From Patescibacteria group bacterium (GTDB taxonomy: Bacteria; Patescibacteriota; Minisyncoccia; Phycocordibacterales; Zambryskibacteraceae), in the NCBI GenBank assembly GCA_038058485.1, contig JBBUBA010000012.1, positions 1-44,752 of the forward strand: DNA of 44,752 nucleotides, given 5' to 3'. The position numbers were made by a program, and so were the translations under genes. This document shows positions 28,265 through 41,561 of the stretch, one piece after another (position 1 is the stretch's first letter; each line of letters begins with the position of its first letter). The notes beneath the pieces are model-generated. The model was not told the DNA's origin and made no database searches. It saw nothing but the letters and a program-made list of their open reading frames with translations.

Positions 28265-29722
28265 ATGAAAAGTAAACGCATTTTTTTGATCTGGAATGGA
28301 GGTGAACAAGAAGTTCGGTCTATTATTCAAAAGCTCGAAGCAGACTCGCACAAAGTGGTATACGTAATTAGTAATGGCACCAGCCAGTTTTCCTTAGATG
28401 GCATCATCGTTCATTTGGACAACGATGCTAGGAGGGGCATTGCGGCTAAAGGAATTGATGAGAGCGAATTCTTTCCCCCAGACAAAGAATTGATAAGGGT
28501 TATGTTTAAGACAGAGTCCCTTATCCTCACTATGATGAATCGAAAAGTAGACTCTCCTGCTAAGCCCATGTCTTTGGACGAAAAGAAGCATTTCTATTAT
28601 CACCTTCTACGATACTGGCATGGCGTGTTTAAAAAATACCAACCTGATCTCATTATTTTTCCAGCAGTACCCCATAATGTCTCTAATTTCACTATTTATT
28701 CTCTCGCTAAATGCTTCAATACCCCCACCGCCCTTTTTCAAGAAACTTGGGCTTCCGACAGAATTCTTCTTCAATTCGCCTACGACCAAGAAAGCTTAAT
28801 GCTTTCAACGGCTCTCAATAAAAACAAGGGAAAGATTTTTTCTCCAGAAAGCCTAAGCCCTGATCTTGAGAGGTACTATCGTCTTCACACCGACTCAGCT
28901 GGAGACGCCACACCCTTTGATGTCTTAGTACAAGCCAAGCGTTACAGAGGTCTCGAGCGACTCTCTCTTAAACTCGAAGCAGTCCTCTCTAGTCTTAAGG
29001 ATCTTACTTTCTTCATTAAAGCCTGGAAATATATAAGACGAATGATTCAACCAAATCTTAAAAAAGATTACAATCGCCTAACGGTTGATCTAGATTTCAA
29101 AAAACCTTTCGTCTACATGCCACTCCATTGGCAACCCGAATGCACGACCAGTCCATTAGGAGATATGTATGTTGATCAGCTTCTGATGATTGAAACCCTG
29201 TCGGTTGCCTTACCAGAAGGATGGAGACTCTATGTTAAGGAACATCCTTTCCAATGGTCTGTTGACGGAGTGACCACATATTCGAACATGAGATATAGGG
29301 GTTATTATGAACACCTAGCCAAACTCAAGGGGGTGTTCTTAGTAGATGTTTCAACTGATACTTATACCCTCCTTGCGCATTCTAAGGCGGTGGCGACGAT
29401 TACTGGTCGCGCAGGAATAGAGGCTGTTTTAAGAGGCAAGCCAGTTTTAGTTTTTGGTTATCCATGGTACATGAGTCTCCCTGGAATTTTCCGTATAACA
29501 GGACCTTCGGAGTGCCAGAAATCACTTCAGAGTATCAAAGACGGTTATGTTCCGGACAAAAACGAAGTTCTCAATTATTTGAAGAGTTTTGATGAGAGTA
29601 CAGGTAGGGGTTACATTGAACCCTTGGGGAAGATGAATACGGCTATTAGTCGAGAGAAAAGTATTTCAGAAGTATTACGCCTACTTGAAATAGGTATGAA
29701 AAGATGCGATAGTAAGAAATAA
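28265..29722 (+). CDS. Capsule polysaccharide biosynthesis protein family (KpsS/KpsC-like transferase)
   Basis: FVYMPLHWQPECTTSPLGDMYVDQLLMIETLSVALPEGWRLYVKEHP and ATITGRAGIEAVLRGKPVLVFG fit my recollection of the Capsule_synth family pattern. Confidence 0.6.
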   Translation: MKSKRIFLIWNGGEQEVRSIIQKLEADSHKVVYVISNGTSQFSLDGIIVHLDNDARRGIAAKGIDESEFFPPDKELIRVMFKTESLILTMMNRKVDSPAKPMSLDEKKHFYYHLLRYWHGVFKKYQPDLIIFPAVPHNVSNFTIYSLAKCFNTPTALFQETWASDRILLQFAYDQESLMLSTALNKNKGKIFSPESLSPDLERYYRLHTDSAGDATPFDVLVQAKRYRGLERLSLKLEAVLSSLKDLTFFIKAWKYIRRMIQPNLKKDYNRLTVDLDFKKPFVYMPLHWQPECTTSPLGDMYVDQLLMIETLSVALPEGWRLYVKEHPFQWSVDGVTTYSNMRYRGYYEHLAKLKGVFLVDVSTDTYTLLAHSKAVATITGRAGIEAVLRGKPVLVFGYPWYMSLPGIFRITGPSECQKSLQSIKDGYVPDKNEVLNYLKSFDESTGRGYIEPLGKMNTAISREKSISEVLRLLEIGMKRCDSKK

Positions 29723-29723
29723 C

Positions 29724-30737
29724 TTGGCCAAAACAAAACACGCTTTTCTAAAGGGTAAGACAATGCTTATAACTGGTGGAACAGGCTCTTTTGGCCGTAA
29801 TTTCGTCAAATATCTTCTGGAAACTTCTGACTTAAAGAAGCTAATCATCTTAAGTCGAGACGAACTCAAGCAATCTCAAATGAGATCCCAGATCAGAGAT
29901 AAGAGGCTCCGTTTTTTTATTGGTGATGTCCGGGATTTACAGCGTCTTGAGCGCGCCTTCAATGGGGTTGATATGGTCGTTCATGCGGCCGCCCTCAAGC
30001 AAGTTCCTACTCTTGAGTACAATCCTTTTGAGGCAGTAAAGACCAATATCTTGGGTAGTCAAAATGTGATAGATGCTGCGATTGATCAAGGGGTGAAGAA
30101 GGTGGTTCTTATTTCCACTGATAAGGCCGCTTCACCAACCAATCTTTATGGATCGACCAAGTTGTGTGCGGAGAGGCTTTTCATAAGTGGTAATGCTTAT
30201 ACTGCCGATGATACTTTATTAAGTTGTGTCCGATATGGAAATGTAGTAGGGAGTAGAGGGAGCGTGGTAGATGTTCTACTTAGGAATCCCGATCAATCTA
30301 CTGTTACAATTACTCACGAGGAGATGACACGTTTTTGGATAAACCTTGAACAAAGTTTCACGCTGGTACTTTTCACCCTTGAAAAGATGTCTGGAGGGGA
30401 GATATTTGTCCCCAAGATTCCAAGTATGAAAGTGGCTGATCTTTTTCACGCACTGGCTCCTAAGGCTAAGAAAAAAGTGACAGGAATGAGACCAGGAGAA
30501 AAGCTCCACGAGCTTTTATTGACCAAAGAAGAGGCTCGCCATGCTATAGAGCTTGAGGATTATTATGTCATTCTTCCGGAACATGATGAACTTTTCAATA
30601 ACAATATCCGTTTCAAAAAGATACTCAGCCAAAGTAAGAAGTTGCCCAAGAACTTTAGCTACTCAAGTGATACAAACCATAAGTGGCTGACCCAAGATGA
30701 GTTCCGTAAAATGGTGAGTTCCAGTCAACTTCTATGA
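29724..30737 (+). CDS. pseB: UDP-N-acetylglucosamine 4,6-dehydratase (inverting), PseB type (probable start ATG 29763)
   Basis: LITGGTGSFG..LSRDELKQSQM..RFFIGDVRD..STDKAA.P.NLYG.TKLC..VRYGNVVGSRGSV..FVPKIPSMK..RPGEKLHE is co-linear with PseB/FlaA1. Confidence 0.85.
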   Translation: MAKTKHAFLKGKTMLITGGTGSFGRNFVKYLLETSDLKKLIILSRDELKQSQMRSQIRDKRLRFFIGDVRDLQRLERAFNGVDMVVHAAALKQVPTLEYNPFEAVKTNILGSQNVIDAAIDQGVKKVVLISTDKAASPTNLYGSTKLCAERLFISGNAYTADDTLLSCVRYGNVVGSRGSVVDVLLRNPDQSTVTITHEEMTRFWINLEQSFTLVLFTLEKMSGGEIFVPKIPSMKVADLFHALAPKAKKKVTGMRPGEKLHELLLTKEEARHAIELEDYYVILPEHDELFNNNIRFKKILSQSKKLPKNFSYSSDTNHKWLTQDEFRKMVSSSQLL

Positions 30738-31837
30738 TCCCTTATGGCAAGCAAGAGATAACCTCTCAAGATATCTCTGCAGTTGTTAAGGTTCTGAAAT
30801 CAGATTTCTTAACTCAAGGTCCGCAAATAGCCGAGTTTGAAAAAGAGTTTGCAAAGTATGTCGGCGCGAAGTATGCGGTGGCTGTGGCTAATGGCACAGC
30901 GGCACTTCACATCAGTGCTCTGGCTCTGGGGGTGAGCAAAAAAAGTCACGCTATTACCACTCCCATCACTTTTGTCGCTTCGGGCAATTGCGTGCTCTAC
31001 GCTGGAGGTCAGGTGGAATTTGCAGATATAAATTCCGAGACCCTGATCCTAGATGTTAAAAAAATCAAACAACTTCTTGAAAGTAAACCCAAGAATTATT
31101 ACTCAGGACTGATCGTGGTGGATATGGCCGGGTATCCAGCTGACTTAAAAGCCTTTAGGAAACTTGCAGACAAACACGGACTCTGGATCATAGAAGATGC
31201 TTGCCATGCCCTTGGTTGTGGAAATGGAAAATTCGCTGATGTTTCTACTTTCTCCTTTCACCCCGTTAAACATATTACTACTGGCGAGGGAGGCATGATC
31301 ACCACCAATCGCCAGGATCTGTATGAAAAACTATTAAGATTACGCACGCATGGCATTACGAAGGACCCAAGGCGCCTTAAGGAGCGTCACGGCGGTTGGT
31401 ATTATGAAATGCAGGATCTCGGGTTTAATTATAGGATGACTGATATCCAGGCAACTTTGGGCCGAAGCCAGCTTAAAAGAGCACGTAAAAATCTTGCTAA
31501 ACGCCGTAAAATTGCTCGAGTATATGATCAGGCATTTAAAAACACGAGCATACAGATTTCGCCAAAATGTCTAGGGCATGCCTACCATCTTTATATTATT
31601 CAAACAAAAAAACGTAAAGAGCTATACGATTATCTCCACGACAATGGAATCTTAGTTCAAGTACATTACATCCCAATGCACTTGCATCCTTTCTACAAAA
31701 AAATGGGTTGGAAGAAGGGCAATTTCCCCAAGGCGGAGGCTTATTATGAAAAAGCCTTGAGTCTACCCATGTACCCAACACTGACAAACAAAGAGCAGAA
31801 GTTCGTGATTAAAAAAGTGTTAGAATTCATAAAATAA
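30734..31837 (+). CDS. pseC: DegT/PseC-type PLP aminotransferase (UDP-4-amino-4,6-dideoxy-sugar transaminase)
   Basis: MIPYGKQEIT..DFLTQGP.., FSFHPVKHITTGEGG (catalytic Lys) and VHYIPMHLHPFY. Confidence 0.85.
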   Translation: MIPYGKQEITSQDISAVVKVLKSDFLTQGPQIAEFEKEFAKYVGAKYAVAVANGTAALHISALALGVSKKSHAITTPITFVASGNCVLYAGGQVEFADINSETLILDVKKIKQLLESKPKNYYSGLIVVDMAGYPADLKAFRKLADKHGLWIIEDACHALGCGNGKFADVSTFSFHPVKHITTGEGGMITTNRQDLYEKLLRLRTHGITKDPRRLKERHGGWYYEMQDLGFNYRMTDIQATLGRSQLKRARKNLAKRRKIARVYDQAFKNTSIQISPKCLGHAYHLYIIQTKKRKELYDYLHDNGILVQVHYIPMHLHPFYKKMGWKKGNFPKAEAYYEKALSLPMYPTLTNKEQKFVIKKVLEFIK

Positions 31838-31841
31838 CATT

Positions 31842-32582
31842 ATGAAAAAAGTAGGTATTATTTCTCAAGCTCGAATGGCCAGTACCCGTTTACCAGGTAA
31901 GCTCATGCTTTCTATTAAAGGCAAGCCACTTTTGCAATATTTTGTAGAACGACTCGAGAAAAGCGGTATACCGCTTTATATCGCCACGAGTACAGAATCG
32001 AATAATGACATTATTGCGGGATTTTGTGAGGAACACGACATAACCTGTTTTCGCGGAGACGAGAATAACATTTTGAAACGTTACTATGATTGCGCTGTCG
32101 AGCACAAACTAGATGTCATTATCCGCATCACTTCGGATTGCCCGCTGTCTGACGGAGCGGTGGTCAAAGAAGCACTTGAGACGTATCTGGCTTTTAATGA
32201 TGAAAATGTTCACTATTCGAACTGTGTGGAGCTCACCTGTCCACACGGGATGAATTTCGAGATTTTCTCCTTCAAACTTCTGGAAGAGGCGTATAAAAAT
32301 GCGACTGATGATTTCGACAAAGAGCACGCTACCCCGTATATTATCAAGAATAAATCTGGAAACGTCGTTCTGAAGCATTATACGATAGACAAGAATGCTC
32401 ATGATTATAGAGTAACGGTTGATACGTACGATGACTTCAAGCTAATGAGAAAATTGATCGAAGAGTATGGAGCGGATACCAAGAATCAAGACGAGATCAT
32501 CTCGATCTTTGAAGCTCATTCGGAATTAGTGGAGATGAATAGGCCTAAGAAGCCTCATGTCTGGGCGCTTGATAAGAAATAA
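31842..32582 (+). CDS. CMP-sugar cytidylyltransferase family (SpsF/PseF-like)
   Basis: N-terminal GIISQARMASTRLPGKLML and RITSDCPL motif. Confidence 0.75.
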   Translation: MKKVGIISQARMASTRLPGKLMLSIKGKPLLQYFVERLEKSGIPLYIATSTESNNDIIAGFCEEHDITCFRGDENNILKRYYDCAVEHKLDVIIRITSDCPLSDGAVVKEALETYLAFNDENVHYSNCVELTCPHGMNFEIFSFKLLEEAYKNATDDFDKEHATPYIIKNKSGNVVLKHYTIDKNAHDYRVTVDTYDDFKLMRKLIEEYGADTKNQDEIISIFEAHSELVEMNRPKKPHVWALDKK

Positions 32583-33185
32583 ATGGAACCAAAAGAAGTT
32601 GTAGTAATATTCGCCGGTGGATTTGCTCAAAAAAATGGCCAATGGATAAGTCGGAGATTTGGAGATGATGGAGTGGGCCCCCCAGGATCGGACTTACGAA
32701 TGCTCGCCGGAGCTTATCTATACCAAGAAGATCCCTCACGTCTGCTCATTACTTCTGGTGGCAGGGGATACCTAGACAGTCTGTTCCCCCTTGGATTGAC
32801 CATGGCTGGGGTGATCAAGAGAGAGCTTGTGGGCAAGGGAGTACCGGCGGATAGTGTTATTGAAGAGTTCAAGTCCTCCAATACTTACTCACAGCTTAGT
32901 GCTCTGCAAGATCTAGCTCTTGAATACAAATTTACTTCAGTACTTCTCGTATCCAGCTCACATCACTTGCCGAGGATTGAAGCCATGCTTAAATATGCTC
33001 CTGGGCTTAGAGAAATAGAAAAGATTGCTAGAACCGTTTCCGCCGACGAAGTGGTGATAAAAAAAGATCTTTCTTGGAAAAAAGTAATAGAGACAAATTA
33101 TAATCGAGAGCCGCTAAAGAGTATTATAGAAAGAGAACCCTCAGGGATCGAACAAATCAAAAACGGAACGTATAAATTTAAATGA
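32583..33185 (+). CDS. DUF218 (YdcF/ElyC-like) protein
   Basis: VVIFAGG...LITSGGRG...LLVSSSHHLPR pattern. Confidence 0.65.
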   Translation: MEPKEVVVIFAGGFAQKNGQWISRRFGDDGVGPPGSDLRMLAGAYLYQEDPSRLLITSGGRGYLDSLFPLGLTMAGVIKRELVGKGVPADSVIEEFKSSNTYSQLSALQDLALEYKFTSVLLVSSSHHLPRIEAMLKYAPGLREIEKIARTVSADEVVIKKDLSWKKVIETNYNREPLKSIIEREPSGIEQIKNGTYKFK

Positions 33186-34240
33186 ACAAGCCAGCAGAGT
33201 TGAAAATAGATAAGAGGAAGGTTGGGCCCGGACACCCTGTGTTTATCATTGCGGAAATGTCGGGGAATCATGGGCAGAGTTTCAATAAGGCCAAGAAGAT
33301 TGTGGATGCGGCGGCCAGAGCTGGAGTGGATGCTATTAAACTTCAGACCTTCAAACCAGACGAGCACACTCTCGACTGCGATAACAAATACTTTCAAGTC
33401 AAGATAAACAAAGCTTGGAAGGGCGAGACTCTCTATAGTTTATATAAAAAAGTTTATACCCCATGGGAGTGGCAGGCTAAACTTAAAAAATATGCAGAAT
33501 CAAAAGGTCTGATCTGTTTCTCGGCCCCAGGCCATGAGAGTGCGGTGGATTTTTTAGAGAAAATAAAAGTGCCAGTATACAAAGTAGCTTCGTTTGACAT
33601 TGTAGATCCAGCTCTTTTGAAGAGGATTGGTCGAACTAAAAAACCGGTGATTATTTCTCGCGGGCTTGCTTCTGTCGAAGATATTAAATTTGCTATAAAA
33701 ACTCTCAGATCTGCAGGGTGTCCAGCAGTAGCTGTACTCCATTGTATAAGCTCGTATCCCGCGAAACTCGAACAGATGAATTTACTAACAGTGCCGGACA
33801 TCGTCAAGCGGTTTGGAGTGGTAAGCGGGCTCTCAGACCACTCGCTCGGTCTAACAGCTTCACTTACTGCCGTCGCTTTAGGTGCTTCGATCATAGAAAA
33901 GCATGTTATTTTAAGTCGCAAAGATGGCGGACCGGATGCAGAATTTTCTCTGGAGCCTCGAGAGTTTAAAGAGCTGGTGCAATCCGTGCGCGAAATAGAA
34001 AAGGTTTTGGGAGAAGTTTCTTATAAGGTTGGCAAGCATGAAGCCCAGAATATCATCTTTCGCCGCTCACTCTTTGTTGTTGAGAATATTAACAAAGATG
34101 AAAAGTTTACTAAAAAGAATATTCGTTCGATTCGTCCAGGTTATGGTCTCCCACCGAAAGAATTGCCAAAAGTTTTAGGCAAGAAGGCCACCAAGGATAT
34201 TTTACGTGGCACTCCTCTTGACCACACTCTGTTTCAGTGA
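33182..34240 (+). CDS. pseI: NeuB-family nonulosonic acid synthase (pseudaminic/legionaminic/sialic acid synthase)
   Basis: FIIAEMSGNHGQS..A..AGVDAIKLQTF TIM-barrel N-terminus and a C-terminal SAF-like domain. The pseI symbol is inferred only from the adjacent pseB/pseC. Confidence 0.8.
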   Translation: MNKPAELKIDKRKVGPGHPVFIIAEMSGNHGQSFNKAKKIVDAAARAGVDAIKLQTFKPDEHTLDCDNKYFQVKINKAWKGETLYSLYKKVYTPWEWQAKLKKYAESKGLICFSAPGHESAVDFLEKIKVPVYKVASFDIVDPALLKRIGRTKKPVIISRGLASVEDIKFAIKTLRSAGCPAVAVLHCISSYPAKLEQMNLLTVPDIVKRFGVVSGLSDHSLGLTASLTAVALGASIIEKHVILSRKDGGPDAEFSLEPREFKELVQSVREIEKVLGEVSYKVGKHEAQNIIFRRSLFVVENINKDEKFTKKNIRSIRPGYGLPPKELPKVLGKKATKDILRGTPLDHTLFQ

Positions 34241-34253
34241 TATTTTTGGATGA

Positions 34254-34889
34254 ATGAAAATCACTCTTGTCTCGGATAATCCGGGGAGTTGGATACACCC
34301 TTATGTGGCCGAATTGGCTAGACTTCTTCGCGCAGACGGACACGATGTCTCTGTAGTGGGAGACTCGAAAGGGATTCCAACGGGTGGGATTACCTTCCTT
34401 TTGGCTTGTGAGAGGATTATCTCTGAAGAAACCCTTGGCAGAAGTCTGCATAACCTCGTCATCCATGAGAGTGCTCTGCCCAAGGGCCGAGGTTGGTCGC
34501 CGATGACTTGGCAGATCCTCGAGGGCAAAAATGAGATTCCTATCACCCTGTTTGAAGCAGAAGTTGAAGTAGATAGTGGGGCAATTTACTTCCAAGACGT
34601 GATGAAGTTCAAGGGACACGAGCTTGTCGATGAGTTGCGCAAGGTGCAGGGAGAGAAGACTATTGAACTGGCACGACGCTTCGTTCGAGAATATCCGAAT
34701 GTGGCAGGTCGAGAGCAGACTGGCGAGGTCTCACACTACGAGCGTCGCCGAGCTGAGGATAGCGAGCTTGATTCGACTAAAACACTCGCCGAACTCTTCG
34801 ATCAGTTGCGAGTGGTGGACAACGAACGCTATCCGGCCTACTTCAGGCATCGGGGACATGTGTATACGATTAAGATCACCAAAGCATGA
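34254..34889 (+). CDS. Formyltransferase-family protein (Fmt/PurN fold)
   Basis: HESALPKGRGWSP active-site motif; 211 aa. GC-rich relative to flanks. Confidence 0.75.
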   Translation: MKITLVSDNPGSWIHPYVAELARLLRADGHDVSVVGDSKGIPTGGITFLLACERIISEETLGRSLHNLVIHESALPKGRGWSPMTWQILEGKNEIPITLFEAEVEVDSGAIYFQDVMKFKGHELVDELRKVQGEKTIELARRFVREYPNVAGREQTGEVSHYERRRAEDSELDSTKTLAELFDQLRVVDNERYPAYFRHRGHVYTIKITKA

Positions 34890-35818
34890 AGTCCTCAAAA
34901 AATATCATGATTACATGTGGTGGCGGTGGTGGGCCGATCTTCCTGGCCCGCCACCTGCAAGAGCGCCACCGAATCTTCCTCGTTGATGGTAGCAGAGAGA
35001 ATGCCGCTCCATATCTGGGGTTCCCGTTTGAGCGAGTCTCTTTCGGTAACAACCCAGTTTTTATAAAAGAAATGCAAAGCTTGATCAATAAGTGGCACAT
35101 CGATTGTATTGTGCCTGGGGCGGACGAAGAGTTGATACCAGTATCAAAACTTTTGGAGACTAACCACGGACTGATGGCATTGATCCCCTCAAAAGAATTT
35201 ATAGAGTTGTGTCTCGACAAGAGAGGACTAATGGAAATCTTGGCCAAAGCCAAGATTTCCACACTTCTGTCATACGAGAGTTTGGCCAAAGTAAAGTATC
35301 CAGCTCTGGCCAAACCAAACTCCGGTAGAGGCTCTCGACAGGTGCACAAGGTGAAGAATAAACAGGAACTAGATGGATATCTCAAGTTATATAGCAAAAA
35401 ATTTCAAAACGTTCTGGTTCAGCCATACATCGAGGGTGTAGAGTATACCGTCTCGGTCATCGTTAACAATAAAAACAAGTTCATCGGAATTGTGCCCAAA
35501 CGGGTGATAGAGAAGAGAGGTATCACTCGAGCGGCAGTCTCCGAAAGAAATATTCAAATAGAGAAAGTGTGCAAAAAAATTATTGCAACCTTCAATCCTC
35601 GGGGCCCCTTCAACGTCCAATTAAAATTGGATAAAGGGAAAATATATATTTTCGAGATTAATCCCAGACTCTCAACCACATCGGTTTTGAGTGATAAGGC
35701 TTTCGGAAATGAGGTTATGCTCCATATCAAGTATCATGATAAGGATACGATTACCCACCCTCCCAAGTTTAAAGAAGGGGTGTATTTGTATCGCTATGAA
35801 GAAAACATCTTTAAATAA
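34886..35818 (+). CDS. ATP-grasp ligase
   Basis: YPALAKPNSGRGSRQVHKV, VLVQPYIEGVEYTV and IFEINPRLS. Confidence 0.75.
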   Translation: MKSSKNIMITCGGGGGPIFLARHLQERHRIFLVDGSRENAAPYLGFPFERVSFGNNPVFIKEMQSLINKWHIDCIVPGADEELIPVSKLLETNHGLMALIPSKEFIELCLDKRGLMEILAKAKISTLLSYESLAKVKYPALAKPNSGRGSRQVHKVKNKQELDGYLKLYSKKFQNVLVQPYIEGVEYTVSVIVNNKNKFIGIVPKRVIEKRGITRAAVSERNIQIEKVCKKIIATFNPRGPFNVQLKLDKGKIYIFEINPRLSTTSVLSDKAFGNEVMLHIKYHDKDTITHPPKFKEGVYLYRYEENIFK

Positions 35819-36584
35819 AAAAATTCTTCTTTTGGGTGCGGGTGGTTTGGTGGGGCGGGCCTTGTTCAATAATTTTGAGAGTCTCGGTTTAGACGTGCGG
35901 GGTACTACCAGAGCTGATTTGGATACTTGTGACACAGAGATAGTGAAAGGATTTCCCTGGTCGGACTATGATGTGATAGTAGATTGTACAGGTTTTATTG
36001 ATTACGGTGAGACTAAAGAAATAGAAGAAAAGTTGAAAAAAGTAAACATGGAAGCTCCGTTAAATCTTCTTAGCCAGCTTGGAGAGACTCAGCGATATAT
36101 ATATCTTTCAAGCCATGTCGTTCTTTTGCCTCCAGAGAGCCAAAATCCTTACGCTAAGTCTAAGGCCGAGTTCGAGAAGTTGTCTGCCTCGGGGGAGGTG
36201 AAGGCCAAAGTATTAATCCTCAGACTTCCTGGCATTTTTGCTGACGAACGAGAAAGTGGTCTCTTGTATAAAATCAAACAAAGTTTTTTGAAGCGGGAGT
36301 CTCTATCTCTTACTATAAACAACGTGCTTTGGCATGCCATGTACTTACCGCGCGTAATTGAGATTATCGAAAAATTGATCACGATCTCACCTAAAGAACG
36401 CATTATCACTGTCGGCTATCCCACAGAGACAAACATCGAAAAGATTATAGGAGACAGAAAGAACGTCATCTTGAATGTAAATCAAACAGATCACTATTGC
36501 CCAGATGTGAGAATTCAAAACCAATATATTCAAATTACTCCTCCGATGTTTGAAGAAGACCTGGAAGCTTACTTTAAAAAATGA
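35796..36584 (+). CDS. NAD(P)-dependent sugar reductase/epimerase-like protein (extended SDR)
   Basis: ILLLGAGGLVGRAL Rossmann motif and YAKSK (YxxxK). Start chosen at MKKTSLNKK; the track ORF 35691 overlaps the ATP-grasp gene. Confidence 0.65.
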   Translation: MKKTSLNKKILLLGAGGLVGRALFNNFESLGLDVRGTTRADLDTCDTEIVKGFPWSDYDVIVDCTGFIDYGETKEIEEKLKKVNMEAPLNLLSQLGETQRYIYLSSHVVLLPPESQNPYAKSKAEFEKLSASGEVKAKVLILRLPGIFADERESGLLYKIKQSFLKRESLSLTINNVLWHAMYLPRVIEIIEKLITISPKERIITVGYPTETNIEKIIGDRKNVILNVNQTDHYCPDVRIQNQYIQITPPMFEEDLEAYFKK

Positions 36585-37069
36585 TTATAAATACAGCCAG
36601 AGTAGTAGACAGGGTGGCGGGGGTCGTTTTGAAAGAAGACTCAGTCCTCCTCATGTATAGAAAAAACTATGGCAAAGAGTACTACACTTTTCCAGGTGGA
36701 GGCATAGACTATGGTGAGACAAAGGAAGGGGCGTTCATCCGTGAGATGGCTGAGGAGACTTCGCTCAATGTAAAACCCGAAAAGATTCTGTATGAAGTAA
36801 ATTGGGATAATGGTACCAAGCAGTATTTCTTCCAAGTCACATGTCTCATCGGCGAACCTGTTCTCGGAGATTTTGATGAAAGGAAGATTATGCAGAAAGA
36901 TCCAGAACAATACTACGAACCCAAATGGGTCCAAATTGCGGATTTACCCAAGCTACTCATCTTTCCGCTTGAAGTGGTAGATTTACTAATAAGTGACCTG
37001 AAAACTGGTCTTCCGGCTATAGCTCGCCAATTATCGATAACGTTTGCAACAAGTCGTCAAGAGAGGTAA
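36581..37069 (+). CDS. NUDIX hydrolase
   Basis: Nudix box GGGIDYGETKEGAFIREMAEETSL. Confidence 0.85.
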   Translation: MIINTARVVDRVAGVVLKEDSVLLMYRKNYGKEYYTFPGGGIDYGETKEGAFIREMAEETSLNVKPEKILYEVNWDNGTKQYFFQVTCLIGEPVLGDFDERKIMQKDPEQYYEPKWVQIADLPKLLIFPLEVVDLLISDLKTGLPAIARQLSITFATSRQER

Positions 37070-37078
37070 GGTTGAGCC

Positions 37079-37750
37079 ATGAATAAGACTAATAAGGTCT
37101 TGGTAGTAGTAGCCCATCCTGATGATGAGCTCTTGGGACTGGCCGGTACGCTTTGCAAGCATCGAGACGCGGGAGACAATGTGTCTATTTTGATCTTGGC
37201 TAATGGTGAGGACTCTCGGGATACAGGGGCTAATGCCAAAAAGCGCCTTGGCCAAGCTGGAAGAGTGGCAAAGAAATTGAAGGCCAAACTATATCTGGAA
37301 AACTTGCCGGACAATCAGTTTGACTCTGTACCACTCTTAAAGATCGCTAAGCTTGTGGAAAAAGTGATTTTCAAAGTGAAGCCGTCTATCGTCTACACTC
37401 ACCATCCGCAAGATCTCAACATTGATCACCAGAAGGCGTGTGAGGCGGTAATGACAGCTTGTCGCCCAATGCCTGGTGTGCACGTTAGGAAGATTTTTGG
37501 ATTCGAAACCCTCTCTTCAACTGAGTGGCAAATAAAGGATTTCAGACAATTTGCGCCGAATCATTATGTGGATATACACAAGTATCTAAAGGAGAAGCGG
37601 TCTCTCCTCAAACACTATCACGATGAAATGCGCAACTACCCTCACTCTCGTTCCTATGAAGGAGTAGAAATACTTGCTAAGTACAGAGGTTTGGAAGTTG
37701 GACTCAAGTCCGCCGAAGCCTTTGAGGTTCTGCGTTCCATCGATTTCTGA
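37079..37750 (+). CDS. PIG-L/LmbE-family N-deacetylase
   Basis: VVAHPDDELLG motif and downstream HxDH. Confidence 0.85.
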   Translation: MNKTNKVLVVVAHPDDELLGLAGTLCKHRDAGDNVSILILANGEDSRDTGANAKKRLGQAGRVAKKLKAKLYLENLPDNQFDSVPLLKIAKLVEKVIFKVKPSIVYTHHPQDLNIDHQKACEAVMTACRPMPGVHVRKIFGFETLSSTEWQIKDFRQFAPNHYVDIHKYLKEKRSLLKHYHDEMRNYPHSRSYEGVEILAKYRGLEVGLKSAEAFEVLRSIDF

Positions 37751-37792: not shown

Positions 37793-38404
37793 ATGCCTAC
37801 ACAAGTGGTGATAGTCGATTACGGATTAGGTAACCTAACCTCTGTTAAAAATGCGCTTCTGATGGTTGGTGTGGAAGCTCTTATAACAAGAGATCCCACA
37901 GATATTAGCGATGCATCTCACCTCATCCTCCCGGGCGTTGGTAGTTTTGGTCAGGGGATGAGAGGTTTGAAGGAGCGCGGGCTCGTCGAGGTATTGCAGA
38001 AAGAAGTTCTCGAGAATCACAAAAAAATTCTAGGAATTTGTCTAGGCATGCAGCTTCTTGCGACGAAAGGATTTGAGTTCGGAGAGAACGAAGGACTTGG
38101 TTTCTTGTCTGGGGAAGTTGTTAAAATCAATACTGCCGAAAGATTGCCTCACATGGGTTGGAACAATGTTTCCCTCGTAGGTGAACACAGAATTACTGAA
38201 GGGCTCGAAACAAATCCCCAGTTCTACTTTGTTCACAGCTTCCACTTCAAACCGGAAGATAGGAGTATTGTGGCCGGTGTGGCGGAGTATGGCGAACCCA
38301 TAGTATCTATAATAGAGAAGGGGAATATCTTCGGTACACAGTTCCATCCTGAAAAAAGTCATGATGCGGGTCTAAAAATCCTTAAAAATTTTCTTAATCT
38401 CTAA
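37793..38404 (+). CDS. hisH: Imidazole glycerol phosphate synthase HisH-like glutamine amidotransferase (WbuY-type paralogue)
   Basis: ILPGVGSFG, GICLGMQLL (nucleophile Cys) and FGTQFHPEKS. TAGGAT (37781-37786) plus 6 nt lies before the ATG. Confidence 0.85.
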   Translation: MPTQVVIVDYGLGNLTSVKNALLMVGVEALITRDPTDISDASHLILPGVGSFGQGMRGLKERGLVEVLQKEVLENHKKILGICLGMQLLATKGFEFGENEGLGFLSGEVVKINTAERLPHMGWNNVSLVGEHRITEGLETNPQFYFVHSFHFKPEDRSIVAGVAEYGEPIVSIIEKGNIFGTQFHPEKSHDAGLKILKNFLNL

Positions 38405-39231
38405 TGCTTACCACCAGACTCATTCCGGTGCTCCTATATAAAAGTGGAATTTTAGTTAGAAGTAGAACCTTTACGCTTCACCAAGCCACTGGTGATCCCA
38501 TAACCCAAGTGGAACGTCTAACTGCTTGGAAAGCTGACGAACTTATATATCTAGATATTAGTCGAGACGCAGTTTATGATTTCAGACAAACGATGAACGT
38601 CATAGGTCCGACGAGTTCGAGTAGGGATTTATTTGCAACAATGCAGAACAATTTCATCGATGTTGTGAGAGAAGTATCAAAGATTTGTAGGATTCCGTTG
38701 ACCGTCGGCGGTAAAATCCGTACAATTGAGGATATCCGAGTCCGTCTTGAGGCTGGTGCAGACAAGGTAAGTATCAATACCGAGGCTTTGCGAAGAAAAG
38801 AGTTTATTAGAGAGGCAGCAGAGGCCTTTGGTAGCCAATGTATTGTCATTTCGATAGATGTCAAGTTTGATCCGGAGAAGAACAGATGGGCGGTCTATCG
38901 TGATTTTGGTAAAGTGAGGACAGGCCTTGATCCAGCTACTTGGGCCAAGGAAGCGGTTCAATATGGTGCAGGGGAGATACTCATACAATCGATAGATCGA
39001 GACGGCACAGGTAGGGGATATGACTTGGATCTTGTCCGTGAGGTGGTAAGAGAGGTTAGCGTCCCGGTCATTGCCTTGGGGGGAGTTGGGGAATTTGAGC
39101 ATCTAGTAGAGGGGATAAAGAGGGGTGAAGCAAGTGCTGTGGCCGCCGCTAACATTTTCCATTTCAGCGAACAGAGTGTTATCAATGCAAAAGAATATAT
39201 GAAAAAAAAAGGTATAAATGTCCGACTATAA
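38404..39231 (+). CDS. hisF: HisF-like cyclase subunit (WbuZ-type paralogue)
   Basis: RLIPVLL...ADELIYLDIS...GGKIRT...GADKVSINT...SIDRDGTG.GYD...ALGGVG pattern. Confidence 0.85.
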   Translation: MLTTRLIPVLLYKSGILVRSRTFTLHQATGDPITQVERLTAWKADELIYLDISRDAVYDFRQTMNVIGPTSSSRDLFATMQNNFIDVVREVSKICRIPLTVGGKIRTIEDIRVRLEAGADKVSINTEALRRKEFIREAAEAFGSQCIVISIDVKFDPEKNRWAVYRDFGKVRTGLDPATWAKEAVQYGAGEILIQSIDRDGTGRGYDLDLVREVVREVSVPVIALGGVGEFEHLVEGIKRGEASAVAAANIFHFSEQSVINAKEYMKKKGINVRL

Positions 39232-40363
39232 CAAATCAAAGTGTCATATATGTGGTGAGACAGAGACTTTTAAAGTAGCAAACAAAAATTACTATTTGGA
39301 TGGATTAAAGGTCCAAATAAAACAAGAGTACCTAATTTGCTCACGGTGCGGGTTCCTTTTCACCGCAGATCCTCCATCTAAAAAGTTTCTAGAAAAATAC
39401 TATAATACGAGTTTCCAGGAGCGGAGTGGATTTGCGGATTCCTCCGAGAAAAGACATGTAAGGGACCAAGTACATTTTCTGAAAAGCTCAATGGGTGTTT
39501 TTAGCGGACCGATTCTTGAGATTGGGCCAAACCATGGAGAATTTCTTGATGAACTAAGAAAAATTGGTACTCATAAGTTATATTATTCAGAATTGAACGA
39601 GCGAGCAGCAAGAATATTGAAAGCTAGAGGCTATACGGATTTCGATTCCATGAAGTCAAAGAGGGGATCCGTCAGTCTTATCGTACTGATGCACACCCTG
39701 GAGCACGTTGTCGATCCCCGCCACTTCATTGCGAGGCTTGTTTCCTATCTGTCCGAGAATGGACATCTTTACATCGAAGTGCCAGATTTTTCCCGCCATG
39801 ACAAGAACACTGATTCCTTACTGTTTGAGCATGTAAATTATTTTGGGAAATTCTCACTTCACTATCTTCTCTTCTCATGCGGTCTCGACATCATATCTAT
39901 TGAATCTGATACCGATGCTCTGTACACTGCCTGTCCACGCCGAATTGTTCGCATAATCGCGCAAAAATCTAATACTATCCCCAATACCTCCCAAAAACGA
40001 ATTGATGCCATCCGTAAAACAATTAGTAGAGAAAATTTATTTTTCGAAAAACTAGACGATTTCCTTTTCAAGGTGAAGCGGGGAGAGAGAATTGGTATTT
40101 ACACGGCAGGTCTTCTTGCTAGAGAAAGTCTTCGGAAGACTAGATTGGGAAGCAAAACAGTAGTGGGTATATTTGATCGGGATAAAAGCAAGTGGGGGAA
40201 GAAGGTGGGGGGGGTGAATATAATGTCACCAGAAGAGATAAAGAAATTCAACATAAAATATCTGCTAGTCTTGAACGAAGGGTATGAGAACCAGATTCGG
40301 AAGGATCTAGGTAAATCAAAATTTCCAAAGGCTACCTTTTATTCAGATATTATGAAATTATAG
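39218..40363 (+). CDS. Class I SAM methyltransferase with N-terminal zinc ribbon and extra C-terminal domain (NDP-sugar C-methyltransferase-like architecture)
   Basis: CHICG...CSRCG, motif I ILEIGPNHGEF, and a ~120-aa C-terminal domain. Confidence 0.65.
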   Translation: MSDYNKSKCHICGETETFKVANKNYYLDGLKVQIKQEYLICSRCGFLFTADPPSKKFLEKYYNTSFQERSGFADSSEKRHVRDQVHFLKSSMGVFSGPILEIGPNHGEFLDELRKIGTHKLYYSELNERAARILKARGYTDFDSMKSKRGSVSLIVLMHTLEHVVDPRHFIARLVSYLSENGHLYIEVPDFSRHDKNTDSLLFEHVNYFGKFSLHYLLFSCGLDIISIESDTDALYTACPRRIVRIIAQKSNTIPNTSQKRIDAIRKTISRENLFFEKLDDFLFKVKRGERIGIYTAGLLARESLRKTRLGSKTVVGIFDRDKSKWGKKVGGVNIMSPEEIKKFNIKYLLVLNEGYENQIRKDLGKSKFPKATFYSDIMKL

Positions 40364-40367
40364 TGGG

Positions 40368-41561
40368 ATGAAGACGAAAAGACCGATGACATATTGCAAA
40401 CGGTGCACCTACCCGATTATGGCGGTTAATTTGACAATAGGCGATGAAGGGGTCTGTAGTGGCTGCACTGTCCATGATGAGAAACCTGTAATAGATTGGA
40501 CTAAGCGAGAAGAAGAGTTCAAGAACTTGCTCGAATCTTATAAGAGCAAAGATGATAGTAACTATGATTGCATCATCCCTGTTTCTGGAGGTAAGGACAG
40601 CCACTTCCAGGCTTGGTATATAAAGGAGAAGCTTGGTTTGAATCCGCTCCTCGTCACTTACTATACTCACAACTACACACCGACCGGCGAGGAAAACTTG
40701 AAGAATATCGGCAAGACCTTCGGTATCGATCATTACGTGTTCACTCCGAGCTACAAAGTTATCCAGAAGATGAATCGCCTCGGTTTCAAAAAGACCGGAG
40801 ATATGAGCTGGCATTTCCACTGTGGGGCTTGGACAGTGCCATTTCAGTTGGCTGTCAAAATGAACATTCCCTTAGTGATTTACGGAGAACATGGGCTACT
40901 CGACTTGGCTGGACAATTTAGTTTTGAAGATCGACCAGAGTTTACTCAAAGGTATAGAAAGGAGACAATGATGCGAGGATTCGAACCAGAGGATTTTTTG
41001 GGAGGTGAAGAAGGTCTCACGAAAAGAGACTTGGAGTGGGCCCAGTTCCCATCTGATGAAGACATAGCCAGAGTTGGGGTCAGAGGCATATATATGGGTG
41101 TCTACGTCTTTTGGGACGCCAACAAGCACACGAAGGAGATTAGCATCCCGGCTGGTTTCAAACCCAATCCAGAGCCGTTTGTGAGGACATATAGGACAAT
41201 GTCTAATGTCGATGATATCCACGAAAACGGTATCAAGGATTATATGAAGTTTGTGAAGTTCGGTTACGGTAGAGCAACAGACCATACTTCTAAAGATATT
41301 CGTCTGGGGGTAATGACCCGCGAAGAAGGTATTGAATTATTGAAAAAATACGATGGAGCCTTCCCTCACAAATCGTTTAAATATTTTTTAGACATGACCG
41401 ATATGAGCGAAGAGGAGTTTTGGAAGACTGCAGATACGTTCCGCGATCCTCGAGTGTGGTGGATAGAGGATGGGCTGTGGTGGAAGGATAATATTTGGGG
41501 TGAACCGTCTTCATATGGCCAGGTTCATTTGTCAAAAGAAATGCAAAAAAAGTATGTTTAA
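40368..41561 (+). CDS. N-acetyl sugar amidotransferase (WbuX/PseA-type PP-loop enzyme)
   Basis: N-terminal CKRC...GVCSGC zinc motif followed by PP-loop PVSGGKDS. Confidence 0.8.
   Translation: MKTKRPMTYCKRCTYPIMAVNLTIGDEGVCSGCTVHDEKPVIDWTKREEEFKNLLESYKSKDDSNYDCIIPVSGGKDSHFQAWYIKEKLGLNPLLVTYYTHNYTPTGEENLKNIGKTFGIDHYVFTPSYKVIQKMNRLGFKKTGDMSWHFHCGAWTVPFQLAVKMNIPLVIYGEHGLLDLAGQFSFEDRPEFTQRYRKETMMRGFEPEDFLGGEEGLTKRDLEWAQFPSDEDIARVGVRGIYMGVYVFWDANKHTKEISIPAGFKPNPEPFVRTYRTMSNVDDIHENGIKDYMKFVKFGYGRATDHTSKDIRLGVMTREEGIELLKKYDGAFPHKSFKYFLDMTDMSEEEFWKTADTFRDPRVWWIEDGLWWKDNIWGEPSSYGQVHLSKEMQKKYV

What the first reader, a model, noticed from the sequence alone, without database searches (positions are those of the whole stretch)
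29724..37750. Pseudaminic-acid-type nonulosonate pathway with non-canonical middle steps
PseB (29763..30737), PseC (30734..31837), a NeuB/PseI synthase (33182..34240) and a cytidylyltransferase (31842..32582) are clear. No GNAT PseH and no PseG-type UDP-sugar hydrolase is present. In their place are a formyltransferase (HESALPKGRG), an ATP-grasp ligase, a small NAD(P) reductase, a NUDIX hydrolase, a PIG-L deacetylase and a DUF218 protein. One plausible reading is that NUDIX substitutes for PseG in NDP release, that formyl or aminoacyl groups replace the 4-N-acetyl, and that PIG-L allows N-acyl exchange. N-formyl pseudaminic acid derivatives are known, for example in the Pseudomonas aeruginosa O7/strain 1244 glycan. 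A full pathway of this kind in a presumed reduced-genome CPR organism, with NUDIX in the PseG slot, would be noteworthy.
Basis: partly seen in the sequence, partly recalled or inferred. Interest (0 to 1): 0.6.

Follow-up and report, generated by a model that had tools for sequence, protein, structure and literature searches.

The report
Pseudaminic-acid operon: DUF218 replaces PseG
A tiny uncultured (Parcubacteria-type) bacterium carries a real operon for the sialic-acid-like surface sugar pseudaminic acid that lacks two textbook enzymes.

Summary
PseB, PseC and PseI pass NCBIfam's curated cut-offs, and ten genes from 29724 to 37750 form one tightly packed run on the + strand. No PseG, PseH, other GNAT, NeuD-type or NeuC-type gene was found in the 507-kb genome, which is 87% complete.

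NUDIX is not the conserved stand-in for PseG. It occurs only in four close syntenic contigs, always beside a DUF218 gene.

The DUF218 gene (32583-33185) is the better candidate:
- It sits next to PseI-type synthases across Patescibacteria.
- It was mutually exclusive with PseG in the genomes sampled.
- Elsewhere it is fused to a GNAT, a CMP-transferase or a formyltransferase.
- It keeps Thr-His-Arg of the catalytic cluster reported in October 2026 for DUF218/Upr hydrolases. Those enzymes cut sugar-O-diphosphate bonds on the sugar side, which is the chemistry PseG performs.

The formyltransferase-like protein, or the ATP-grasp ligase, probably replaces PseH. PIG-L and the WbuX/Y/Z genes remodel the N-acyl groups. 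The role of NUDIX is unresolved.

This scan had already noted "DUF218 replaces PseG" on other DNA: 37 notes in at least 36 other genomes. I found no paper describing it. Nothing here is shown biochemically.

The parts
28265..29722 (+). KpsS/KpsC-like protein (Pfam Capsule_synth). Candidate transferase for the finished sugar. Context only, lying just upstream of the finding.
   Evidence: Pfam PF05159 46 bits. No NCBIfam match. The homologue sits in the same position in L051, L058, L062 and several loci of the class.
29724..30737 (+). PseB, the inverting UDP-GlcNAc 4,6-dehydratase/5-epimerase
   Evidence: TIGR03589 449.3 bits against a cut-off of 407.75. FnlA and LegB fall far below their cut-offs.
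30734..31837 (+). PseC, the aminotransferase that makes UDP-4-amino-4,6-dideoxy-beta-L-AltNAc
   Evidence: TIGR03588 462 bits against a cut-off of 423.5.
31842..32582 (+). Divergent CMP-nonulosonate synthetase (CTP_transf_3), not a PseF equivalog
   Evidence: Pfam PF02348 99 bits. TIGR03584 only 16.9 bits. Conserved in 8 class loci. Fused to DUF218 in P0141, P0167, P0177 and P0193.
32583..33185 (+). Soluble DUF218/Upr-like protein. Proposed UDP-sugar hydrolase and functional replacement of PseG.
   Evidence: Pfam PF02698 55 bits. Adjacent to PseI-type synthases. Fusions. T101, H128 and R131 align with SanA T125, H149 and R152. AF2 model pLDDT 93.6; best PDB match YdcF. No TM segment.
33182..34240 (+). 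PseI, pseudaminic acid synthase (NeuB family plus SAF domain)
   Evidence: TIGR03586 453.6 bits against a cut-off of 340.25. NeuB is below its cut-off.
34254..34889 (+). Short formyltransferase-like protein. Candidate N-formyltransferase replacing PseH, or acting together with PIG-L.
   Evidence: PF00551 37.9 bits against a cut-off of 26.1. H71 and D107 are invariant, but the catalytic Asn position (His-2) is Val, with an invariant Asn at His-4. It is the only Formyl_trans_N match in the genome. FolD is present. More than 2,000 relatives, commonly in Pse loci.
34886..35818 (+). ATP-grasp ligase (PRK12767 type). Candidate N-acyl ligase.
   Evidence: NF009402 150 bits, below its cut-off of 218. 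Pfam ATP-grasp_3 65 bits. Orthologues in L051, L058, L062, L063 and L072, and a distant one in L037.
35796..36584 (+). Short RmlD-like SDR (262 aa) with the fold of an NDP-4-keto-sugar reductase
   Evidence: Pfam RmlD_sub_bind 41.8 bits. GxxGxxG and S105-Y119-K123 are invariant in 5 orthologues. AF2 model pLDDT 70; best folds are RmlD 3SC6 (TM 0.71) and MlghC.
36581..37069 (+). NUDIX hydrolase with a canonical Nudix box. Part of the lineage-specific tailoring cassette; role unresolved.
   Evidence: Pfam PF00293 49 bits. Box GGIDYGETKEGAFIREMAEET at residues 40-60. Orthologues only in L058, L062, L063 and L072. PDB matches are generic MutT/NUDX1.
37079..37750 (+). PIG-L family de-N-acetylase
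   Evidence: Pfam PF02585 85 bits. BshB1 is below its cut-off. Pairs with formyltransferase-like genes in L002, L004, L059, L060, L062 and L063.
37793..41561 (+). Acetamidino module, interrupted by a 381-aa methyltransferase (39218-40363): HisH-like (37793-38404), WbuZ/HisF-like (38404-39231) and WbuX amidotransferase (40368-41561)
   Evidence: TIGR01855 242.7 bits. TIGR03572 264 bits, below its cut-off of 299.7. TIGR03573 359.7 bits against a cut-off of 203.2. Pfam Methyltransf_23.

Best explanation
The locus is an operon for a CMP-activated, N-acyl-modified pseudaminic acid.

Steps identified by family membership:
- PseB and PseC convert UDP-GlcNAc to UDP-4-amino-4,6-dideoxy-beta-L-AltNAc.
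- PseI condenses the freed 6-deoxy-hexosamine with PEP.
- A divergent CTP_transf_3 enzyme makes the CMP-sugar.

Inferred steps:
1. The 4-amino group is not acetylated, because the genome has no GNAT. It is formylated by the formyltransferase-like protein, using 10-formyl-THF made by FolD, or acylated by the ATP-grasp ligase.
2. The soluble DUF218/Upr-like protein then hydrolyses the sugar-1-O-diphosphate bond of the UDP-sugar, releasing UDP and the free sugar. This is the PseG reaction, carried out by an unrelated fold.
3. PIG-L removes an N-acetyl group so that it can be replaced. WbuX/Y/Z convert an N-acetyl into an acetamidino group. Methyltransferases decorate further.
4. The RmlD-like SDR and the NUDIX belong to a lineage-specific cassette that most likely acts on nucleotide-linked intermediates. 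Their exact reactions are unknown.

My estimates:
- A real Pse-type pathway without PseG and PseH: 0.9.
- DUF218 is the UDP-sugar hydrolase: about 0.65.
- The formyltransferase-like protein, rather than the ATP-grasp, acylates N7: about 0.5.
For: Core enzymes pass the equivalog cut-offs.

Absence of the usual enzymes:
- PseG, PseH, other GNATs, NeuD-type and NeuC-type enzymes were not found in the genome.
- PseG was found in none of 15 other PseI-positive genomes of the class, most of them 92-100% complete.
- The same search does find PseG in 5 of 401 genomes of the phylum.

DUF218 travels with PseI:
- Present in 9 of 15 class loci.
- In the class sample of 301 genomes, 11 hold a full-length match. 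Eight of these lie directly beside a PseI-type synthase, two lie in the same cluster, and one lies beside a PseH.
- Of 14 distinct loci fetched through DUF218 itself, 11 have the synthase directly adjacent.

Mutual exclusion: four PseG-positive, PseI-positive genomes of the phylum have no full-length Pse-type DUF218.

Position swap: PseG sits directly before the formyltransferase-like gene in L002, and DUF218 sits there in L060.

Fusions: DUF218::GNAT, CTP_transf_3::DUF218 and Formyl_trans_N::DUF218.

Chemistry:
- The preprint 10.64898/2026.10.14.759067 reports that the DUF218 proteins SanA, ElyC and YgjQ hydrolyse the C55-PP-sugar bond, with 18O from water ending up on the sugar.
- It names T125, H149, R152 and E182 as catalytic.
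- The window protein aligns T101, H128 and R131 to the first three.
- These positions are T in 88, H in 84 and R in 90 of 90 family representatives.
- The protein has no TM segment and gives a confident Rossmann-like model.

Formyl route:
- This is the only Formyl_trans_N match in the genome, and FolD is present.
- His and Asp of the catalytic triad are invariant.
- A deacetylase plus formyltransferase, and CMP-nonulosonates with a free or formylated amine, are reported for the Kuenenia Leg-type cluster.
Against: - No enzyme activity has been measured for any of these proteins.
- The Upr work is an unreviewed preprint. It concerns membrane-anchored periplasmic enzymes acting on lipid-linked substrates.
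- The counterpart of the fourth catalytic residue (E182) could not be placed by alignment. Candidates are the all-acidic position 155, E185 and E81.
- The hhalign match to SanA is modest (probability 59%, E 9e-5). The best structural match, YdcF, has TM only 0.52.
- Five of 16 PseI-positive class genomes have neither PseG nor a clear DUF218. Two of them carry a HAD phosphatase in the locus instead. So other solutions exist.
- The formyltransferase-like family lacks the catalytic Asn at its usual position. In other genomes it co-occurs with both PseH and PseG, so it may act on N5 after PIG-L rather than replace PseH.
- The genome is 87% complete.
Confidence: 0.6

Rival explanations
1. The NUDIX hydrolase takes PseG's place by splitting the UDP-sugar into UMP and sugar-1-phosphate, which a phosphatase then frees. 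Alternatively it hydrolyses at C1, as GDP-mannose mannosyl hydrolase does.
For: - NUDIX is conserved inside the operon in four close relatives.
- Its neighbour is an RmlD-like enzyme that acts on nucleotide sugars, so a nucleotide-sugar substrate is plausible.
- G079 has neither PseG nor DUF218. It carries a HAD phosphatase fused to a degenerate NUDIX-like domain beside GNAT-PseI.
- From general knowledge, the Nudix enzyme GDP-mannose mannosyl hydrolase releases GDP plus free sugar.
Against: - NUDIX is absent from the Pse loci of all 15 other PseI-positive class genomes.
- It never occurs without DUF218 in the loci seen.
- Its Nudix box is the canonical pyrophosphatase type, and no phosphatase is encoded in the window's locus.
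- PDB and NCBIfam matches are generic MutT/NUDX1 types.
- The NUDIX-like part in G079 scores only E = 0.007 and has no Nudix box.
Confidence: 0.12
2. The DUF218 protein works like its characterised relatives, on a lipid-linked (undecaprenyl-diphosphate) glycan and from the cytoplasmic side. It would be a release or carrier-recycling factor for the polysaccharide made by this locus. UDP removal would then be done by something not yet recognised.
For: - The only demonstrated DUF218 activity is hydrolysis of C55-PP-sugar.
- The window is a large glycan-assembly locus with many glycosyltransferases, an ABC exporter and a Wzy_C protein.
Against: - The protein has no membrane anchor.
- It is tied specifically to PseI, not to glycosyltransferases or flippases.
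- It is fused to soluble enzymes that work at the nucleotide-sugar level: GNAT, CMP-transferase and formyltransferase.
- This reading leaves the obligatory UDP-release step without an enzyme in more than ten near-complete genomes.
Confidence: 0.1
3. Nothing is replaced. Canonical pseG and pseH lie in the unassembled 13% of the genome, and the extra genes only decorate the sugar.
For: - The genome is 87% complete in 48 contigs.
- In other bacteria the formyltransferase-like/PIG-L pair co-occurs with PseG and PseH.
Against: - None of 15 other PseI-positive class genomes has PseG. Most are 92-100% complete and one is a single contig.
- Syntenic contigs L058, L062, L063 and L072 show the same gene set without PseG or a GNAT.
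- Pse genes are normally clustered, and this operon has no gaps.
Confidence: 0.05

Closest known systems
Canonical CMP-pseudaminic acid pathway PseB-PseC-PseH-PseG-PseI-PseF (Campylobacter jejuni, Helicobacter pylori)
   Same: PseB, PseC and PseI are equivalog-level members. The overall logic is the same: UDP-GlcNAc, then a 4-amino-6-deoxy-L-AltNAc intermediate, then the free sugar, then condensation with PEP, then the CMP-sugar.
   Different: There is no GT-B-type PseG and no GNAT PseH anywhere in the genome. The cytidylyltransferase is not a PseF equivalog. Five extra tailoring genes are embedded in the operon.
Upr-like (formerly DUF218) release factors UprA/SanA, UprB/ElyC and UprC/YgjQ of E. 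coli (bioRxiv 10.64898/2026.10.14.759067)
   Same: Same Pfam domain. The Thr, His and Arg of the reported catalytic cluster are conserved. The reported reaction, hydrolysis of a sugar-1-O-diphosphate bond with water attacking the sugar side, is the same type of bond cleavage that PseG performs on a UDP-sugar.
   Different: The window protein is soluble with no TM anchor. It is encoded in a nucleotide-sugar operon, so its presumed substrate is a UDP-sugar rather than a C55-PP-glycan. The Glu182 counterpart is not established. Sequence similarity is remote (hhalign probability 59%).
E. coli YdcF (PDB 3CA8), the cytoplasmic DUF218 protein of unknown function
   Same: It is the best structural match of the model. 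It is also soluble and cytoplasmic.
   Different: TM is only 0.52 and identity 11%. A profile search of PDB sequences did not find it. [quoted passage not shown]
Legionaminic-acid-type cluster of Ca. Kuenenia stuttgartiensis with an embedded deacetylase and formyltransferase (SugarBase preprint 10.64898/2026.04.20.719630)
   Same: A deacetylase and a formyltransferase are embedded among nonulosonate core genes. CMP-sugars with a free or formylated amine show that the exchange happens at the nucleotide-sugar level.
   Different: That cluster is Leg-type, with a LegG-type hydrolysing epimerase. This one is Pse-type, with DUF218 plus an ATP-grasp/SDR/NUDIX cassette.
7-N-formyl pseudaminic acids (Pse5Hb7Fo of Pseudomonas aeruginosa O7/1244; Pse5Ac7Fo). 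Cited from general knowledge and from the abstract of PMC11040635.
   Same: They give a chemical precedent for formyl on the amine installed by PseC and for a non-acetyl group at N5.
   Different: No structure is known for this organism's sugar. The formyltransferase-like protein here lacks the usual catalytic Asn position.

Membership tests
PseB (TIGR03589) | Score above the curated equivalog cut-off, and better than FnlA/LegB | tested here: met
   449.3 bits against 407.75. FnlA scores 251 against 730 and LegB 58.7 against 475.
PseC (TIGR03588) | Score above the curated equivalog cut-off | tested here: met
   462 bits against 423.5.
PseI (TIGR03586) | Score above the curated equivalog cut-off and not NeuB/LegI type | tested here: met
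   453.6 bits against 340.25. NeuB_NnaB scores 297.7, below its cut-off of 399.65.
PseF (TIGR03584) | Score above the curated equivalog cut-off | tested here: not met
   16.9 bits against 205.7. It is a member of Pfam CTP_transf_3 only (99 bits).
PseG (TIGR03590, GT-B UDP-sugar hydrolase) | A gene in the genome that matches the PseG profile | tested here: not met
   The only match is 19.4 bits, in a 378-aa ORF on another contig. None of 15 PseI-positive class relatives has a match over the cut-off.
PseH (TIGR03585, GNAT) | A GNAT gene in the locus or elsewhere in the genome | tested here: not met
   No match to TIGR03585, PF13302 or PF00583 in the genome.
Upr-like / DUF218 hydrolases | Pfam DUF218 domain | tested here: met
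   PF02698 55.1 bits against a cut-off of 27.6.
Upr-like / DUF218 hydrolases | Catalytic Thr-His-Arg-Glu cluster (UprA T125, H149, R152, E182) | tested here: inconclusive
   T101, H128 and R131 align to T125, H149 and R152 and are 98%, 93% and 100% conserved in 90 representatives. The Glu counterpart could not be placed.
Upr-like / DUF218 hydrolases | Membrane-anchored periplasmic location and a C55-PP-glycan substrate | tested here: not met
   There is no hydrophobic segment: the highest 19-residue hydropathy is 1.03, against 2.93 for SanA. The substrate was not tested.
Upr-like / DUF218 hydrolases | Hydrolysis of a sugar-1-O-diphosphate bond, with water attacking the sugar | not testable with these tools
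   This needs an enzyme assay with 18O-labelled water.
Folate-dependent N-formyltransferases (Formyl_trans_N) | Asn-His-Asp catalytic triad, with Asn two residues before His | tested here: not met
   His71 and Asp107 are invariant. The Asn position is Val69, and an invariant Asn67 lies four residues before His. Only profile positions 85-166 of 181 are matched.
NUDIX hydrolases | Nudix box GX5EX7REUXEEXGU | tested here: met
   GGIDYGETKEGAFIREMAEET at residues 40-60. The penultimate Gly of the box is Ser. PF00293 49 bits.
RmlD-like NDP-4-keto-sugar reductases (extended SDR) | GxxGxxG, the Ser-Tyr-Lys triad and an RmlD-like fold | tested here: met
   G14, G17, G20, S105, Y119 and K123 are invariant. 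The best fold is RmlD 3SC6, TM 0.71. TIGR01214 scores only 29 bits against 224, so it is not an RmlD equivalog.

The most novel reading that the evidence does not exclude
A soluble clade of the DUF218/Upr-like hydrolases has been recruited from lipid-diphosphate-glycan cleavage to nucleotide-sugar cleavage. In Patescibacteria and some other uncultured lineages it would be the UDP-sugar hydrolase of pseudaminic acid synthesis, a non-orthologous replacement of PseG. That would be the first cytoplasmic substrate and the first biosynthetic (rather than recycling) role for the family. It would also hint at what the unassigned cytoplasmic members such as YdcF might do.
Probability: 0.6. Interest if true: 0.7.

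Novelty: new variant of a known kind. Interest (0 to 1): 0.6.

Why it matters
Pseudaminic acid pathways are annotated, and targeted by inhibitors, on the assumption that the six-enzyme PseB-C-H-G-I-F route is general. This locus suggests that a whole bacterial phylum usually makes the sugar without PseG, using an unrelated fold.

The result would give a concrete enzyme assay for a soluble branch of DUF218, a very large family whose first biochemical activity was reported only in October 2026. It would also improve automatic detection of nonulosonate pathways in metagenomes, where a missing PseG currently makes the pathway look incomplete.

The embedded cassette of formyltransferase-like protein, ATP-grasp, RmlD-like SDR, NUDIX and PIG-L predicts an undescribed N-acyl variant of the sugar on the surface of ultra-small bacteria.

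Tried and rejected
- **PseG or PseH elsewhere in the genome.** Not found. Other possible acetyltransferases (PF13302, PF00583, NeuD/PglD) and a NeuC/LegG-type hydrolysing epimerase were not found either.
- **NUDIX as the general PseG substitute.** Rejected on distribution.
- **Finding the NUDIX subfamily.** PDB and NCBIfam gave only generic MutT/NUDX1 matches.
- **Wide search for DUF218 relatives.**
  - The word-based homologue search found only 6 proteins.
  - The pattern scans found only 7 loci in genome contigs and 13 in metagenome contigs, because they key on the C-terminal QIKNGTYK motif.
  - The full HMMER scan was needed to see the family: 280 representatives at E <= 1e-30.
- **PDB sequence search with the DUF218 profile.** Nothing real.
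- **Placing the fourth catalytic residue by alignment to SanA.** Unresolved.
- **Literature on DUF218 with pseudaminic, nonulosonic or legionaminic acid.** No paper holds both.
- **Literature on ATP-grasp with pseudaminic acid.** Three papers, none about this cassette.
- **EpaA/EpaB 8-epimerisation as a model for the SDR.** Different families: an aldo-keto reductase fusion and a classical short-chain SDR.
- **Promoter and terminator scan.** No signal above shuffled sequence.

Full report
**1. What is there**

Positions 29724-37750 hold ten genes on the + strand. They overlap by 4-23 nt or are separated by 0-13 nt. No promoter-like or terminator-like signal exceeds what shuffled sequence gives.

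NCBIfam places three of them above curated equivalog cut-offs:
- PseB: TIGR03589, 449.3 bits against 407.75.
- PseC: TIGR03588, 462 bits against 423.5.
- PseI: TIGR03586, 453.6 bits against 340.25. The NeuB model stays below its own cut-off.

So the dehydratase is the inverting type and the synthase is the Pse type.

The cytidylyltransferase (31842-32582) is a clear CTP_transf_3 protein (99 bits). It is not a PseF equivalog (16.9 bits against 205.7).

- DUF218 (32583-33185).
- A short Formyl_trans_N-like protein (34254-34889).
- An ATP-grasp ligase (34886-35818).
- A short SDR, whose likely start is the ATG at 35796.
- A NUDIX hydrolase with a canonical Nudix box (36581-37069).
- A PIG-L deacetylase (37079-37750).

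The cluster continues downstream with HisH-like, WbuZ-like, methyltransferase and WbuX genes, which form the acetamidino module. Upstream lie a KpsS-like protein, an ABC exporter and a methyltransferase. The whole window is a glycan-assembly locus.

**2. The missing enzymes are really missing**

The genome (506,783 bp, 48 contigs, 87% complete) gives one 19-bit PseG match, in a 378-aa ORF on another contig. It gives no PseH match. It also has no Acetyltransf_1, Acetyltransf_3, NeuD/PglD-type or NeuC/LegG-type match.

Incompleteness is not the explanation:
- In a sample of 301 genomes of the same class, 16 have a PseI above the cut-off.
- None of the other 15 has a PseG above the cut-off. The best match is 17.9 bits.
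- Most of those 15 are 92-100% complete, and one is a single contig.
- The same search does find PseG in 5 of 401 genomes of the phylum, so it can detect the gene in these organisms when it is present.

Most class relatives do carry a small GNAT beside PseI, which gives weak PseH matches. This genome and its close syntenic relatives do not.

**3. Which gene travels with PseI**

I fetched about 20 kb around PseI in the 15 relatives and compared the gene content.

Beyond PseB, PseC, the cytidylyltransferase and the GNAT, the recurrent gene is the DUF218 protein. It is usually the gene directly before or after PseI (maps).

NUDIX, the SDR and PIG-L were mostly absent from these loci. More sensitive HMMs built from orthologues confirmed this:
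- NUDIX: no locus.
- ATP-grasp: one locus (L037).
- PIG-L: one locus (L041).

A profile of the DUF218 subfamily (A2) searched over the 301 genomes gave 11 full-length matches:
- Eight are directly adjacent to a PseI-type synthase.
- Two are in the same cluster. One is fused to a GNAT. The other forms the C-terminal part of a 470-aa ORF.
- One lies beside a true PseH.

Loci fetched through DUF218 itself, from genome and metagenome collections, gave 14 distinct loci. Eleven have the synthase directly adjacent and two have it within 5 kb.

Four PseI-positive genomes of the phylum that carry canonical PseG next to PseI have no full-length Pse-type DUF218. In the sample searched the two genes are therefore mutually exclusive. 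The sample is small and the genomes are related, so this is suggestive rather than a statistical result.

The two genes also occupy the same position. PseG sits directly before the formyltransferase-like gene in L002, a contig of a non-CPR bacterium (the same protein also occurs on a contig of 4.5 Mb). DUF218 sits directly before that gene in L060.

**4. Fusions**

A full HMMER scan of 1.84 billion representatives found 280 at E <= 1e-30. Among them are fusions:
- DUF218::GNAT (P0132, P0140).
- CTP_transf_3::DUF218 (P0141, P0167, P0177, P0193).
- Formyl_trans_N::DUF218 (P0131, P0181).
- DUF218::GFO_IDH_MocA oxidoreductase (P0208, P0216).

The first three partners are soluble enzymes for N-acylation and CMP activation, the steps of nonulosonate synthesis that flank UDP removal.

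**5. Chemistry**

A bioRxiv preprint of 15 October 2026 (10.64898/2026.10.14.759067) reports the following:
- The E. coli DUF218 proteins SanA, ElyC and YgjQ (renamed UprA, UprB and UprC) hydrolyse the phosphoacetal bond between undecaprenyl diphosphate and the first sugar.
- 18O from water is incorporated into the sugar.
- Activity depends on Mg2+ or Ca2+.
- T125, H149, R152 and E182 of UprA are essential.

That is the same bond type and the same side of attack as the PseG reaction (UDP-sugar to UDP plus free sugar).

A profile-sequence alignment of A2 to SanA puts T101, H128 and R131 of the window protein on T125, H149 and R152. In 90 family representatives these columns are T in 88, H in 84 and R in 90.

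The Glu182 counterpart could not be assigned. Position 155 is always acidic, and E81 and E185 are invariant.

The protein has no hydrophobic anchor, unlike SanA. Its AlphaFold model is confident (pLDDT 93.6). The best PDB neighbour is cytoplasmic YdcF, at TM 0.52.

I therefore read the DUF218 protein as a soluble Upr-like hydrolase acting on the UDP-sugar. This is an inference, not a demonstration.

**6. Who replaces PseH**

With no GNAT in the genome, the 4-amino group made by PseC needs another acyl donor.

In favour of the formyltransferase-like protein:
- It is the only Formyl_trans_N match in the genome.
- FolD, which makes 10-formyl-THF, is present. Formate-THF ligase was not found.
- His71 and Asp107 of the catalytic triad are invariant in its family.

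Against it:
- The Asn that normally lies two residues before the His is Val. An invariant Asn lies four residues before it.
- The nearest solved structure is 1ZGH, deposited as a methionyl-tRNA formyltransferase. It also has no Asn at the usual position.
- The family has more than 2,000 relatives.
- It usually sits with PIG-L in Pse loci, including loci that have both PseG and PseH. There is also a formyltransferase-like::GNAT fusion.

So it may swap acetyl for formyl at N5 after deacetylation rather than acylate N7. In that case the ATP-grasp ligase would be the PseH substitute. I cannot decide between the two.

A deacetylase plus formyltransferase inside a Leg-type cluster, with CMP-sugars carrying free and formylated amines, has been reported for Kuenenia. 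This supports N-acyl exchange at the nucleotide-sugar level.

**7. The NUDIX and its cassette**

NUDIX orthologues (48-62% identity) were found only in four close syntenic contigs: L058, L062, L063 and L072. They always come with DUF218-PseI, the ATP-grasp, the SDR, PIG-L and a formyltransferase-like gene, in shuffled order.

The SDR keeps GxxGxxG and the Ser-Tyr-Lys triad. Its model is of moderate confidence (pLDDT 70). It best matches the NDP-4-keto-sugar reductases RmlD (TM 0.71) and MlghC. The cassette therefore probably works on nucleotide-linked sugars.

Two of the five PseI-positive class genomes that lack both PseG and DUF218 carry a HAD phosphatase in the locus. One of these is fused to a degenerate NUDIX-like domain. 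A pyrophosphatase-plus-phosphatase route to the free sugar may therefore exist in some lineages.

In this window, however, DUF218 is present and no phosphatase is.

**8. Comparison and novelty**

The pathway works like the canonical Pse route but fails the membership tests for PseG, PseH and PseF.

The library of papers searched holds nothing that links DUF218 to nonulosonic acids. The Upr preprint leaves the cytoplasmic member YdcF and two further clades unassigned.

After reaching this reading I found that the scan already holds 37 notes in at least 36 other genomes proposing that DUF218 replaces PseG. Others describe SDR/ATP-grasp/HAD cassettes in Pse loci. Within the scan, then, this is a repeat observation on new DNA.

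This report adds:
- The mechanistic link to the Upr hydrolases, with residue-level conservation.
- The PseG/DUF218 exclusion test within the phylum.
- The finding that NUDIX belongs to a narrow lineage-specific cassette.

Noticed in passing
whole genome G000 (C12:34254-34889; C45:3137-3610): The only Formyl_trans_N match in the 87%-complete genome is the sugar-operon protein. No canonical methionyl-tRNA formyltransferase was detected, yet FolD is present and formate-THF ligase is not. Either fmt lies in the unassembled part, or the organism starts translation without formyl-Met.
   Followed up: partly
L043 (G079:C1, about 30100-31430), 439-aa ORF: A HAD phosphatase fused to a degenerate NUDIX-like domain (no Nudix box). 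It sits between the cytidylyltransferase and GNAT-PseI in a single-contig genome that has neither PseG nor Pse-type DUF218. It may represent a third way to free the sugar.
   Followed up: partly
window 28265-29722: A KpsS/KpsC-like (Capsule_synth) protein lies directly upstream of pseB. It is conserved in that position in L051, L058, L062 and several class loci. It is a candidate pseudaminyl transferase, followed upstream by a half-size ABC exporter.
   Followed up: partly
G244:C28:2224-3857: In one class relative the PseI gene next to DUF218 is split into two overlapping fragments (profile positions 2-156 and 160-327). This is probably a frameshift or an assembly error.
   Followed up: no
L051 and L055 (record titles): L051 is labelled as an uncultured Saccharibacteria MAG, yet its DUF218, PseI and neighbouring genes are 48-75% identical to the window's and lie in the same order. 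L055 is a 2.5-kb contig binned as Gammaproteobacteria that carries the CPR-type DUF218-PseI pair. Both labels look like binning or naming artefacts.
   Followed up: no
L051:10633-12717: In this close relative about 2.1 kb is inserted between DUF218 and pseI, which abut in the window. The content of the insert was not examined.
   Followed up: no
class sample: NeuB-family synthases are very common in this class of ultra-small genomes. 87 of 301 genomes have one, often 2-4 copies per genome, including roughly 515-530-aa fusion forms. This suggests heavy investment in nonulosonate surface sugars.
   Followed up: no
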